Shown piece after piece: positions 21,801-24,800 of a stretch of DNA of 64,000 nt. Source of the DNA: Escherichia coli (GTDB lineage Bacteria; Pseudomonadota; Gammaproteobacteria; Enterobacterales; Enterobacteriaceae). The stretch lies in assembly GCF_003334305.1 (NCBI RefSeq), contig NZ_QOWS01000002.1; one strand, 5' to 3'. Positions within the stretch are counted from its first letter, which is position 1; every line of letters starts with the position of its first letter. Made by a program: the position numbers.

Positions 21801-24800
21801 GTCTTCGGCAGGGATCTCGAAATAGGTTGATTGTTCGGTTGCAAGGACAAAAGTACGAAAAAATTGTAGCGCTCTGTCATCATAAGTTAGCTGAAATTTT
21901 GATGTGCCTTTGTCGAATACGGCCTGTAAAACGTCATCTCGCTCGTGCAGGCGCAAATCAAATAATTCCATTCCCGCTTTGCCAAAACGGCGAGCAGGCG
22001 CGTAATCGCACAGCAGCTCAACAATATTATAGTGCCGTGGATCCTGGCATATAGCCCGATATATCATTTTAACCTGTTCTTCCGGACCTTCCAGAAGCTG
22101 GAAAAAATGAGAACCATTAAACAGTAAGATCCCTGTTACGTCAGACTGCATGTTCCTGCGATTTGCTATCGAAACCATTTCTTCGATTTTTTTGACAGGT
22201 TCGTCGTCACGTATATGGCTACGATAAATAAGGGTGGTAAGCATTAACAATCCAGGGTAATGGGTGAGGCGAGAGTAAGACGGTAACAGACATATCTTCT
22301 TGTGTCTTTCTTTTAATACCAAAACATAACCGTTTCTTTACATTGATAAAAAATGGAAAAAGTTGAACACTAGTTGGCGAAAAATCTTGTATAGATTGTC
22401 AGTTAAATGATGCAATATGTTTTATCATAACACATTGTTTTATATGCATTAGCACTAATTGCAAAAAATTAATTTATCATTCTGTACACATATTTCGTAC
22501 AAGTTTGCTATTGTTACCTCACTTAACATTGATTAACATTTTTAACAGAGGCGTAGCATGCATCAAAATTCAGTGACTTTAGATTCTGCGGGAGCAATCA
22601 CTCGTTACTTTGCAAAAGCTAACTTGCCTACTCAGCAGGAAACTCTCGGGGAAATTGTGACTGAGATTTTGAAAGATGGACGTAATCTGAGTCGAAAGTC
22701 GCTTTGTGCCAAACTTCTTTGCCGACTGGAACACGCGACTGGGGAAGAGGAACAGAAACATTATAATGCACTAATTGGGTTGCTTTTTGAATAATGCAAC
22801 AGCCTGATTATTTAACAGGTTAGCTATGAAGTCGTTATGAAGACATCTGATAATGAACGTATAAAATATGAAATTACTGGCCAGGCGGTGATCCAGATAC
22901 TGCGCATGAAGATAAATTTTTCATTGCAGACTCTTATTAAGCAATTACTCGTAATGAAATCGGCTGAGGAAGATGCTTTCCGACGCGATTTAATTGACAG
23001 CATAATTCGTGATTTTAGCAATAGTGATTCAGGAGGGCCAAACCGAAGAACAGCGACAGCTGACAATAAAAGTATGTTCAATGGTAAGAAAATAAACAGA
23101 ATACATTAAAATTTCATAAGTAAGATGAGAGGTTACCATGCTTGAAGATACTACAATTCATAATGCAATAACTGATAAAGCGTTAGCAAGTTACTTTCGC
23201 AGTTCGGGTAATTTGTTAGAAGAAGAGTCAGCAGTGTTAGGGCAGGCTGTCACCAATTTAATGCTTTCAGGCGATAATGTTAATAATAAAAATATTATCT
23301 TAAGTCTGATACACTCCCTGGAAACAACAAGTGATATTCTCAAAGCTGATGTGATTAGAAAAACACTGGAAATCGTGTTGCGATACACAGCTGATGATAT
23401 GTAACTTCTAATTATTAAGTATAAGTTTATAGAAAACTCATTCATCTTATTTTTGTCTGTCGCTTTAGACTATACACAGCATAATTTTATTGGGTTAATA
23501 TTTCTACGAGGCTGACATGAATAATTCAATCCCAGAGAGATTTATTTTTCAATGTGCTTTGTTTAAAAATCTCGAGAGGGAGGTGTTCATGACGCATGGG
23601 TATGTTGATAGTCATATTATTGATCAGGCTTTACGCTTGCGTTTAAAAGATGAAACCAGTGTGATTCTTTCTGATCTCTATCTGCAAATATTGCAGTACA
23701 TTGAAATGCATAAGACTACACTAACGGATATCATTATTAATGACAGGGAATCCGTGCTCTCTTAGAACTTGAGTAAGGTTTTAGAATAAACATCAGCTGT
23801 ATCACCATGCTGATGCAAAGTGAGCATTTCAGGCGTTATGCTTTCTTATTATGTCCGCAATATCAGGTGTCAAGAATGGAGAGTTCTCGCTCTCCATTCT
23901 TGACGCCTGATATCCCGCCTAACTTATTTTGTACTGCCTACATTATGCTCAATAATTAATGGGTTAGATCAAGATGGAGAAAATTTTATCTTCGGCGTGG
24001 ATATTTCTTATGCTCTCTACCATGCTCTCTGTAGATGCCAGCGCGAGCGAATGAATGGCATTTTCATGTATTAAACCCTTTGGCCGGGACAAGCAAATGC
24101 GCAATACACTCATACCCATCCTCGTTGCGATATGCTTGTTTATTACCGGTGTCGCTATTTTGAACATCCAGCTCTGGTATTCCGCAAAAGCAGAGTACCT
24201 GGCGGGAGCGAGATATGCCGCCAACAATATCAATCATATACTTGAAGAAGCGTCACAAGCGACTCAAACAGCGGTTAACATTGCCGGGAAGGAATGCAAC
24301 CTCGAGGAGCAATATCAGCTTGGCACTGAAGCAGCTCTGAAACCTCACCTGCGCACAATCATCATTCTCAAACAGGGAATAGTCTGGTGTACATCCCTGC
24401 CTGGGAATCGGGTCCTGTTGTCTCGTATTCCTGTTTTCCCGGACAGTAATTTACTGTTGGCTCCAGCAATCGACACCGTTAATAGATTACCTATCCTGCT
24501 CTATCAGAACCAATTTGCAGATACGCGCATTTTGGTTACGATAAGTGATCAACATATTCGCGGGGCGCTTAATGTACCCTTGAAAGGGGTAAGGTATGTA
24601 TTACGCGTGGCGGATGACATTATTGGACCAACGGGTGATGTGATGACGCTTAATGGACATTATCCCTATACCGAGAAGGTTCACTCCACAAAATATCATT
24701 TCACTATTATCTTTAACCCGCCGCCACTCTTTAGCTTCTACAGACTTATCGATAAAGGCTTTGGAATTTTAATATTTATTCTGTTAATCGCCTGCGCCGC

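What the first reader, a model, noticed from the sequence alone, without database searches (positions are those of the whole stretch)
23829..23911. Long near-perfect hairpin with an alternative upstream pairing partner between ymgC and pdeG
23862..23883 (atcaggtgtcaagaatggagag) and 23890..23911 form a 22-bp inverted repeat around a 6-nt loop. The single non-Watson-Crick position is a G-U pair only if the plus strand is transcribed, which argues for a structured plus-strand RNA in the ymgC 3' region or pdeG leader. Neither flank has a U-run, so it is not a standard intrinsic terminator. An upstream octamer tcaggcgt (23829..23836) is a perfect complement of the distal part of the 3' arm (acgcctga, 23903..23910), allowing two mutually exclusive structures, as in a riboswitch or attenuator-type leader or an RNase III site.
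Basis: seen in the sequence. Interest (0 to 1): 0.4.

Follow-up and report, generated by a model that had tools for sequence, protein, structure and literature searches.

The report
Evolving stem-loop between ymgC and pdeG
The long hairpin between the E. coli genes ymgC and pdeG is real, but it is an ordinary, E. coli-only inverted repeat that K-12-type strains sharpened recently; it probably forms a stem-loop at the tail of the ymgC operon transcript and is not a riboswitch.

Summary
Arms 23860-23883 and 23890-23913 pair over 24 nt around a 6-nt loop, with one T:G position. It is the best short-range inverted repeat in the 64-kb window (fold z about -10 on both strands). The upstream octamer complement also exists.

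The window is E. coli K-12-type DNA (MG1655 coordinate = window + 1,193,231). Nothing is annotated at the site, Rfam gives no match, no U-tract follows, and there is no second copy.

ymgC is an E. coli-only gene. pdeG orthologues in other Escherichia and Kluyvera lack the element.

Within E. coli the element has three structural haplotypes:
- K-12-type: a 25-bp hairpin.
- A rarer divergent type that keeps only the apical 14-bp helix.

The near-perfect K-12 form is derived. Clustered changes in the 5' arm all raise complementarity, and intermediate alleles exist, which fits quasi-palindrome template-switch mutation.

In K-12 the alternative pairing is 14 kcal/mol worse, so no switch is expected.

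[quoted passage not shown] A neutral quasi-palindrome is the main rival. I found no transcript-end data for this site.

The parts
23860..23883 (+). 5' arm of the inverted repeat (ATATCAGGTGTCAAGAATGGAGAG). It is the most variable part of the whole ymgC-pdeG spacer between E. coli haplotypes.
   Evidence: It is 75-79% identical between K-12 and the B2/D alleles, against about 95% for the upstream flank.
23884..23889 (+). Loop (TTCTCG). T23884 and G23889 can close a 25th pair, which leaves a 4-nt loop.
   Evidence: The loop differs in every haplotype: TTCTCG, CGCTCG, TTTTCG, CTATTG.
23890..23913 (+). 3' arm (CTCTCCATTCTTGACGCCTGATAT). TCCATTCTTGA is identical in all alleles seen.
23871..23902 (+). 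Apical 14-bp helix plus loop (C23871-T23884 pairs with G23889-G23902). This is the only part whose pairing is kept in all three haplotypes.
   Evidence: Across 8 distinct alleles, 100% of cells are paired. Five of 14 pairs vary, always through G.U. One pair is seen as G.U, A-U and G-C.
23826..23836 (+). Upstream alternative partner (ATTTCAGGCGT; octamer 23829-23836) of the distal 3' arm 23903-23913. It is helix P1 of the three-way junction predicted for B2/D-type alleles and is not competitive in the K-12 allele.
   Evidence: It has 2 mismatches in the class III haplotype.
23839..23846 (+). TGCTTTCT, the 5' strand of helix P2. In B2/D-type alleles it pairs with AGAGGGCA / AGGGGGCA / AGGGAGC in the 5' arm. 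The K-12 5' arm has no partner for it.
23900..23930 (+). Predicted sigma-70 promoter for pdeG, TTGACG-19-TATTTT. The -35 hexamer (23900-23905) lies inside the 3' arm; the -10 is at 23925-23930.
   Evidence: Genomic-SELEX RpoD peak in the ymgC>ycgG spacer, also flagged as an H-NS site (PMC3946193). It is the best match in the spacer in my own scan, 9 of 12 with a non-optimal 19-nt spacer. It was not found by the stricter scan. The -10 is not conserved in other haplotypes.
23517..23765 (+). [quoted passage not shown] The hairpin begins 95 nt after its stop codon.
   Evidence: It is an E. coli-only ORFan.

Best explanation
The element is a single-copy inverted repeat, specific to the E. coli lineage, in the AT-rich spacer after ymgC.

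[quoted passage not shown] The apical 14-bp helix is present in all strains; K-12-type strains extend it to 25 bp.

I infer that this stem-loop acts as a 3'-end or processing barrier. Transcripts that end further downstream, probably by Rho because there is no U-tract, would be trimmed back to it by 3'-to-5' exonucleases. It would then stabilise the operon mRNA and separate it from pdeG. In its 25-bp K-12 form it is also long enough to be an RNase III substrate. It is not a riboswitch or attenuator.

An older imperfect palindrome was straightened in the K-12-type lineage by clustered changes of the kind made by quasi-palindrome template-switch mutation.

Shown: the structure, its uniqueness, its distribution, the three haplotypes, and the direction and clustering of the changes. 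Inferred: that it is transcribed as part of the operon mRNA, and that it acts as a barrier or processing site.
For: - The structure is real and far beyond chance.
- It lies 95 nt after the stop codon of the last gene of an operon reported to give one polycistronic mRNA (PMC3509220), on the same strand as both neighbours.
- The apical helix is 100% paired in 8 distinct alleles from three haplotypes, while the loop and flanks change freely. All 5 variable pairs stay paired through G.U on the + strand. B2/D alleles fold about 11 kcal/mol better on + than on - (z -5.1 to -5.5 against -1.4 to -1.9).
- The element stays between ymgC and pdeG even in the haplotype whose spacer is only about 79% identical.
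- It is not a terminator, a known RNA family or a repeat family.
- The K-12 form is derived. The divergent class III haplotype and the B2/D haplotypes share the extra 4 nt and the internal loop.
- Allele a15, found in 3 complete genomes, equals a D-type allele except for two G>T changes and a 4-nt deletion within 11 nt of the 5' arm. All three changes raise complementarity to the 3' arm.
- Strain FCI29 carries a B2-type allele with the 4-nt deletion alone.
- Alleles a13 and a14 correct the T:G position to C-G and to T-A respectively.
- Quasi-palindromes are described as template-switch mutational hotspots in E. coli (abstracts of PMC7202029 and PMC8604942).
Against: - I found no mapped transcript end or cleavage site here. 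The Term-seq tables of PMC7815308 list no 3' end near MG1655 1217091-1217150. Those cultures express the operon poorly (a statement from memory), so the absence is uninformative.
- There are no double-sided compensatory changes that beat the shuffle controls. Template switching can itself homogenise the two arms without any selection.
- The lower stem and the octamer pairing are not conserved.
- Strand evidence is mixed. The L100 lineage folds 7 kcal/mol better on the - strand.
- The hairpin arms are not more conserved in sequence than their flanks; the 5' arm is the least conserved segment.
- ycgG (pdeG) appears in some of the same gene lists as ycgZ, ymgA and ymgC in an isoleucine-starvation RNA-seq supplement. 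I did not see the headings of those lists. If they are induced-gene lists, the two units may not be fully insulated from each other.
Confidence: 0.4

Rival explanations
1. The element is a neutral quasi-palindrome. It has no function as RNA or as a protein site. It persists and is periodically straightened only because template switching during replication copies one arm from the other, in a poorly constrained, horizontally acquired, H-NS-bound spacer.
For: - The 5' arm and loop are the fastest-changing part of the spacer.
- Changes are clustered and all raise complementarity. Intermediate and recurrent forms exist (a15, FCI29, a13, a14).
- No covariation exceeds the controls.
- The lower stem differs in each haplotype.
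- No expression or phenotype data point to this site.
Against: - The apical 14 bp show no disrupted pair in any of 8 alleles across about 20% flank divergence.
- Several changes move away from DNA perfection yet keep RNA pairing (G-C to G.U in a6, a4 and a12). Arm homogenisation does not predict this.
- B2/D alleles fold far better on the sense strand.
Confidence: 0.3
2. The element acts as DNA and is part of the pdeG promoter region. The 3' arm supplies the -35 hexamer TTGACG of a promoter with a 19-nt spacer. The dyad would then be a binding or architectural site, for example for H-NS or an unknown dimeric regulator, that sets pdeG transcription.
For: - A genomic-SELEX RpoD peak and an H-NS flag fall in the ymgC>ycgG spacer, with the predicted promoter TTGACG-19-TATTTT (PMC3946193).
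- It is the best sigma-70-like match in the spacer.
- TTGAC is identical in all alleles.
Against: - The match is weak: 9 of 12 with a 19-nt spacer, and it was missed by the standard scan.
- The -10 TATTTT becomes TTGTTT or TGCTTA in the other haplotypes.
- 24-bp arms are far longer than known operators (general knowledge).
- pdeG orthologues in other genera lack the dyad but keep the block at 23975-24055, which is the likelier promoter.
- The mirror-image TTGACA on the - strand has no usable -10 (direct reading of the sequence).
Confidence: 0.12
3. The element is a relic of a mobile element or a recombination junction. In this reading the roughly 95-bp segment 23829-23920 was left when the pdeG-ymgF module was joined to the ymgC module.
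For: - Homology of a divergent ymgC copy (L012) to K-12 stops at about 23828.
- Homology of pdeG upstream regions from other Escherichia starts only around 23922-23975.
- CCGC lies next to both ends of the dyad.
- One strain has an IS1 inserted at the stem base.
Against: - There is one copy per genome. The second BLAST place in each record is most likely the palindrome matching itself on the other strand (not inspected directly).
- No phage match was found, and the plasmid hits are all non-mobilizable E. coli records carrying the same two alleles.
- No transposase, no clear target duplication and no related family were found.
- The L012 boundary may be a rearrangement in that strain.
Confidence: 0.08
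4. This is the first reader's model: a riboswitch- or attenuator-type leader of pdeG that toggles between the long hairpin and the octamer pairing.
For: - Both pairings exist.
- In B2/D alleles the two folds are only 4.3 kcal/mol apart.
Against: - In the window's allele the alternative fold is 14.4 kcal/mol worse.
- No U-tract or terminator is present.
- No Rfam family matches.
- The octamer pairing is broken in class III.
- The element is absent from pdeG orthologues elsewhere.
- It probably lies upstream of the pdeG start site.
Confidence: 0.04

Closest known systems
Stabilising stem-loops in 3' UTRs or between cistrons, such as REP/BIME hairpins (for example malE-malF), that block 3'-to-5' exonucleases (general knowledge)
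   Same: A stable hairpin without a U-tract, placed just after the last or an internal cistron of an operon on the sense strand. The expected effect is protection of the upstream mRNA and definition of its 3' end.
   Different: It is not a REP. There is one copy per genome, it is AT-rich, its sequence is unrelated, and its stem is much longer. The function is untested here.
RNase III processing hairpins in intergenic leaders, such as the rpsO-pnp and rnc leaders (general knowledge)
   Same: A long, nearly perfect double-stranded stem of about two helical turns, between an upstream gene and a downstream gene on the same strand. The K-12 allele has 25 bp.
   Different: B2/D and class III alleles have only 14 continuous pairs, so any RNase III role would be specific to one allele. 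I found no cleavage data.
Quasi-palindrome template-switch mutational hotspots in E. coli (abstract of PMC7202029; arm homogenisation in the abstract of PMC8604942)
   Same: An imperfect inverted repeat in which clustered multi-base changes and small deletions all make one arm the exact complement of the other. There are also single-base corrections in both directions.
   Different: The published cases in those abstracts are reporter or comparative studies. This one is a natural intergenic locus with the steps still segregating in the species. One of the three clustered changes gives T (a U.G wobble) where a pure template copy would give C.
Intrinsic (Rho-independent) terminator
   Same: A hairpin downstream of an operon's last gene.
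   Different: There is no U-tract within 0-2 nt. The stem is 24-25 bp and not G+C-rich. The terminator scan did not call it.

Membership tests
Intrinsic terminator | Short G+C-rich stem-loop followed immediately by a run of U | tested here: not met
   The terminator scan found 0 sites in 23300-24300. The nearest T-run starts 11 nt after the stem. No allele gains a U-tract.
Riboswitch / attenuator leader | Match to a described aptamer or leader family | tested here: not met
   An Rfam cmscan of 22000-26000 at E <= 10 found nothing at the site.
Riboswitch / attenuator leader | Two mutually exclusive structures of comparable stability, one of them a terminator or a sequestering helix | tested here: not met
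   K-12 allele: -49.4 against -35.0 kcal/mol. B2 allele: -38.6 against -34.3 kcal/mol. Neither structure is a terminator.
Riboswitch / attenuator leader | Located in the 5' UTR of the regulated gene and conserved with that gene | tested here: not met
   pdeG orthologues in E. whittamii, cryptic Escherichia and Kluyvera lack the element. The proposed pdeG -35 lies inside the 3' arm. The pdeG start site itself has not been mapped.
REP/BIME or other intergenic repeat family, or MITE | Many related copies per genome (for a MITE, also terminal repeats with a target-site duplication) | tested here: not met
   There is one locus per genome; the second place per record is most likely the palindrome's own reverse-strand match, which I did not inspect. 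It is unique in the window. No phage hit was found.
RNase III substrate | About 20 or more base pairs of near-continuous double-stranded RNA | tested here: inconclusive
   Met by K-12-type alleles with 25 bp. Not met by B2/D or class III alleles, which have a 14-bp apical helix.
RNase III substrate | Cleavage in vivo that depends on rnc | not testable with these tools
   A full-text search for 'RNase III' together with 'ycgZ' found nothing relevant.
Quasi-palindrome template-switch hotspot | Imperfect inverted repeat with clustered changes that all increase arm complementarity | tested here: met
   a15 differs from D-type allele a2 by 3 events within 11 nt and none elsewhere in 110 nt, all toward the complement of the 3' arm. 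FCI29 carries the 4-nt deletion alone.
Quasi-palindrome template-switch hotspot | Recurrent correction of the remaining mismatch toward a perfect palindrome | tested here: met
   a13 changes T:G to C-G and a14/a11 change it to T-A, each on a K-12-like background.
Sigma-70 promoter element | -35 and -10 hexamers with 16-18 nt spacing, conserved, with a mapped start site | tested here: inconclusive
   TTGACG-19-TATTTT matches 9 of 12 with a 19-nt spacer and sits in a SELEX peak. The -10 is not conserved. I found no mapped start site.

The most novel reading that the evidence does not exclude
The three structural haplotypes could be functional alleles of one RNA element: a 25-bp hairpin, a three-way junction, and a 14-bp hairpin with a separate upstream helix. 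Each would set a different level of read-through or mRNA stability. E. coli lineages would then differ in how tightly the blue-light/cold-induced ycgZ-ymgABC operon is coupled to the c-di-GMP phosphodiesterase gene pdeG. The alleles would have arisen by template-switch mutation, which would make this a natural case of RNA-structure evolution by palindrome-templated jumps.
Probability: 0.07. Interest if true: 0.6.

Novelty: new member of a known kind. Interest (0 to 1): 0.27.

Why it matters
Little changes for E. coli biology if the element is just a 3'-UTR stem-loop or a neutral palindrome.

Two points have some value. First, the site is unannotated in K-12. It overlaps the only promoter proposed for pdeG, so anyone making pdeG or ymgC fusions or deletions should know that a stem of about -50 kcal/mol sits there.

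Second, the locus preserves, within one species, a graded series from an imperfect to a perfect palindrome, with intermediates in complete genomes. That makes it a clean natural example for studying quasi-palindrome template-switch mutation. It also shows how such mutation can mimic the compensatory evolution used to argue for RNA structure.

Tried and rejected
- Rfam search of the region: no match.
- Promoter and terminator scan: nothing on the + strand.
- Search for other copies: none in the window, none in phages, and plasmid hits are all non-mobilizable E. coli records carrying the same two alleles.
- A genome-contig scan with YmgC found nothing. The scan with PdeG found 5 loci, none with ymgC or the hairpin upstream. 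Cross-genus covariation analysis is therefore impossible. YmgC homologues are all E. coli.
- A 50-aa ORF (23807-23959) runs through the hairpin. I rejected it as coding because the 4-nt indel in other haplotypes shifts the frame.
- A divergent promoter from the mirror TTGACA on the - strand: rejected, because there is no usable -10 and it is not conserved (sequence reading).
- IS1 hotspot idea: one strain has IS1 at the stem base, but a second IS1 is inside ymgC, so I dropped it.
- Outer helix AGGCG/CGCCT from the first fold: broken by G>A in several alleles, so it is not part of the element.
- Transcript-end data: the Term-seq supplement of PMC7815308 has no entry at the site. Supplements of PMC9023263, PMC11092163, PMC4161252 and PMC13271884 are not held. 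Tschowri 2009 is not held.
- The isoleucine-starvation tables were cut before the ycgG and ymgC rows, so only list membership could be seen.
- Loci L099, L104 and L105 look error-ridden and L106 is a fold-back chimera. I excluded all four.
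Full report
**What is there**

The window is E. coli K-12-type DNA covering bluR-bluF-ycgZ-ymgA-ariR-ymgC-pdeG-ymgF. A 701-nt query around the site is 100% identical to many E. coli chromosomes. In MG1655, ymgC is 1216748-1216996 and pdeG starts at 1217328, so the MG1655 coordinate equals the window coordinate plus 1,193,231. ymgC is 23517-23765 (+) and pdeG is 24097-25620 (+). RefSeq annotates nothing between them.

The arms are 23860-23883 and 23890-23913: 24 nt, 96% complementary, 6 nt apart. The one non-Watson-Crick position is T23868 opposite G23905. 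The upstream complement is also present: 23826-23836 against 23903-23913, with the exact octamer at 23829-23836.

Folding 23800-23930 as RNA gives -56.5 kcal/mol (z = -10.0) on the + strand and -57.6 kcal/mol (z = -9.1) on the - strand. As DNA the value is -25.8 kcal/mol, z = -10.0. The arm is unique in the window, with 0.00 matches expected by chance. The dyad is the best short-range inverted repeat in all 64 kb.

**What it is not**

- No Rfam family matches, even at E <= 10.
- No terminator-like site is called, and no U-run abuts the stem in any allele.
- It is not a repeat family. There is one locus per genome, and the second BLAST place in each record is most likely the palindrome hitting itself on the other strand (not inspected directly). 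Plasmid hits are all non-mobilizable E. coli records carrying the same two alleles. There is no phage match.
- A 50-codon ORF crosses it, but a 4-nt indel in other strains shifts the frame.

**Distribution**

YmgC is an E. coli-only protein: all 161 homologues are from E. coli or unnamed Escherichia. This agrees with PMC3509220, which states that ymgC, ycgG and ymgF occur only in certain E. coli.

PdeG orthologues found in E. whittamii, two cryptic Escherichia lineages and two Kluyvera species have other genes upstream and no hairpin. Their similarity to the window begins only around 23922-23975. The block 23975-24055 is 92-99% conserved in every E. coli haplotype, which makes it the more likely pdeG promoter or 5' UTR.

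Cross-genus covariation analysis is therefore impossible. All comparative evidence comes from within E. coli.

**Three structural haplotypes**

I collected alleles from complete genomes, from a metagenome scan keyed on a flanking 19-mer, and from contigs encoding variant YmgC proteins. This gave 16 distinct alleles, plus further ones in later fetches.

- **Class I.** K-12-like, about 3,000 of 5,426 complete genomes. It folds as the 25-bp hairpin.
- **Class II.** About 1,700 genomes, including strain 042 (a strain I know as phylogroup D), PSUO2 (an avian O2 isolate) and an O157:H7 isolate. It has 4 extra nt (ACAG) and other changes in the 5' arm. Its predicted minimum-energy fold is a three-way junction. 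P2 is UGCUUUCU paired with AGAGGGCA. P3 is the apical 14-bp helix, with three G.U pairs.
- **Class III.** About 37 complete genomes (L097, L107-L109). Its spacer is only about 79% identical to K-12. It keeps the order ymgC-element-pdeG but conserves only the apical 14-bp helix. The octamer pairing has 2 mismatches of 8, and the stem base carries an A:C.

Across 8 distinct versions of the apical helix, every cell is paired. Five of 14 pairs vary, always through G.U, and one pair is seen as G.U, A-U and G-C.

**The alternative pairing**

In the window's allele, forcing the octamer pairing costs 14.4 kcal/mol (-35.0 against -49.4). It is irrelevant at equilibrium. It also has no kinetic advantage, because the two arms are only 6 nt apart.

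In the B2 allele the order reverses: the three-way junction is -38.6 and the long imperfect hairpin is -34.3. But no allele has two comparable states, one of them a terminator. I regard the riboswitch or attenuator reading as not supported.

**Which strand**

It is reinforced by class II alleles, which fold about 11 kcal/mol better on the + strand (z -5.1 to -5.5 against -1.4 to -1.9).

It is not general:
- The L100 lineage (17 contigs) has C:A on the + strand and folds 7 kcal/mol better on the - strand.
- Class III has an A:C at the stem base and shows no strand preference.
- Perfect-palindrome alleles slightly favour the - strand.

My count of independent wobble-type events is 7 compatible with + and 2 compatible with -. 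That is suggestive only. The shuffle controls of the pair counts show no excess covariation.

The better argument for a + strand RNA is context. Both neighbours are on +, and the operon upstream is reported to be one polycistronic mRNA.

**Why K-12 is near-perfect**

Class III and class II share the extra 4 nt and the internal loop, so the imperfect dyad is the older state and the K-12 form is derived.

The 5' arm is the most diverged part of the spacer between K-12 and 042: 78.6%, against about 95% for the upstream flank and 99% for the pdeG block.

- Allele a15, present in 3 complete genomes, is identical to the D-type allele over 110 nt except for two G>T changes and a 4-nt deletion within 11 nt. 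Each of these changes increases complementarity to the unchanged 3' arm.
- Strain FCI29 has a B2-type allele with the 4-nt deletion alone. That single change is enough to flip the predicted fold to the long hairpin.
- Alleles a13 and a14 remove the last T:G in opposite directions.

Clustered, complementarity-raising, recurrent changes are the signature of quasi-palindrome template-switch mutation, which is described in E. coli (abstracts).

One caveat applies. One of the three clustered changes yields T where a pure copy of the other arm would give C. The match to the mechanism is therefore good but not exact.

**Literature bearing on function**

- A genomic-SELEX study lists an RpoD holoenzyme site, also flagged for H-NS, in the ymgC>ycgG spacer, with the predicted promoter TTGACG-19-TATTTT (PMC3946193). 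That TTGACG is 23900-23905 in the 3' arm and TATTTT is 23925-23930.
- It is the best sigma-70-like match in the spacer in my scan, at 9 of 12 with a 19-nt spacer. The stricter scan misses it, and the -10 is not conserved in other haplotypes.
- Term-seq tables list no 3' end at the site (PMC7815308).
- ymgC mRNA was used as a non-polyadenylated control (PMC1636475).
- ycgG (pdeG) appears in some of the same gene lists as ycgZ, ymgA and ymgC in an isoleucine-starvation RNA-seq supplement. The list headings and the numeric rows were not available.
- I found nothing on RNase III at this operon.

**Verdict**

[quoted passage not shown] It would serve as an exonuclease or processing barrier, and its K-12 perfection would be a mutational by-product.

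The main rival (about 0.3) is a functionless quasi-palindrome kept and sharpened by template switching alone. The others are a DNA-level role in the pdeG promoter (0.12), a junction or mobile-element relic (0.08) and the riboswitch or attenuator model (0.04).

It is a new, unannotated member of a familiar kind of feature. Interest is modest. The most useful aspect is the within-species series of palindrome-perfecting alleles.

Noticed in passing
window 20878-20915: A perfect 14-nt inverted repeat, ATACTTTGTACAAT-10 nt-ATTGTACAAAGTAT, lies in the bluF-bluR spacer. From memory, the TTGTACA half-sites resemble the MlrA/BluR-type MerR-family box, so this may be an operator for bluR.
   Followed up: no
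window 23791-23815: A small hairpin, CATCAGC-11 nt-GCTGATG, starts 26 nt after the ymgC stop codon. Strains 042 and DS26-1 keep it through an A>G change that gives U.G. The divergent ymgC copy L012 keeps 6 of the 7 pairs. It has no U-tract.
   Followed up: partly
window 23975-24055: This block upstream of pdeG is 92-99% identical in all E. coli haplotypes. It is also recognisable upstream of pdeG orthologues in E. whittamii, cryptic Escherichia and Kluyvera. It is probably the real pdeG promoter or 5' UTR.
   Followed up: partly
L006 (strain CT29), equivalent to window ~23864: An IS1 is inserted at the base of the 5' arm, with loss of the rest of the hairpin and of pdeG up to ymgF. Strain RM14721 has an IS1 inside ymgC instead.
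   Followed up: partly
L012 (GCA_017278115.1), positions 116-914: A ymgC copy only 82% identical in protein lies next to ydcA-cybB-gapC instead of pdeG. Its similarity to K-12 downstream of ymgC stops at about window 23828, just before the octamer.
   Followed up: partly
window ~24055 onward; L002 (PSUO2): B2-type strains carry an N-terminally deleted pdeG (the ycgG2 allele of PMC6385356). The deletion begins right after the conserved upstream block. The hairpin haplotype is retained.
   Followed up: partly
window 25388-25499, minus strand: Published Term-seq tables list antisense 3' ends inside pdeG, at MG1655 1218619, 1218676 and 1218730 on the minus strand. This implies an antisense transcript across the 3' part of pdeG.
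   Followed up: no
window 9019-9061: An 18-nt, 94% complementary inverted repeat with a 7-nt loop. It is the second-best compact hairpin in the window.
   Followed up: no
L106 (GCA_030237635.1 contig), near the equivalent of window 23950: The contig turns back on itself: the reverse complement of the ymgC-proximal sequence follows the spacer. This is probably an assembly fold-back artefact.
   Followed up: no
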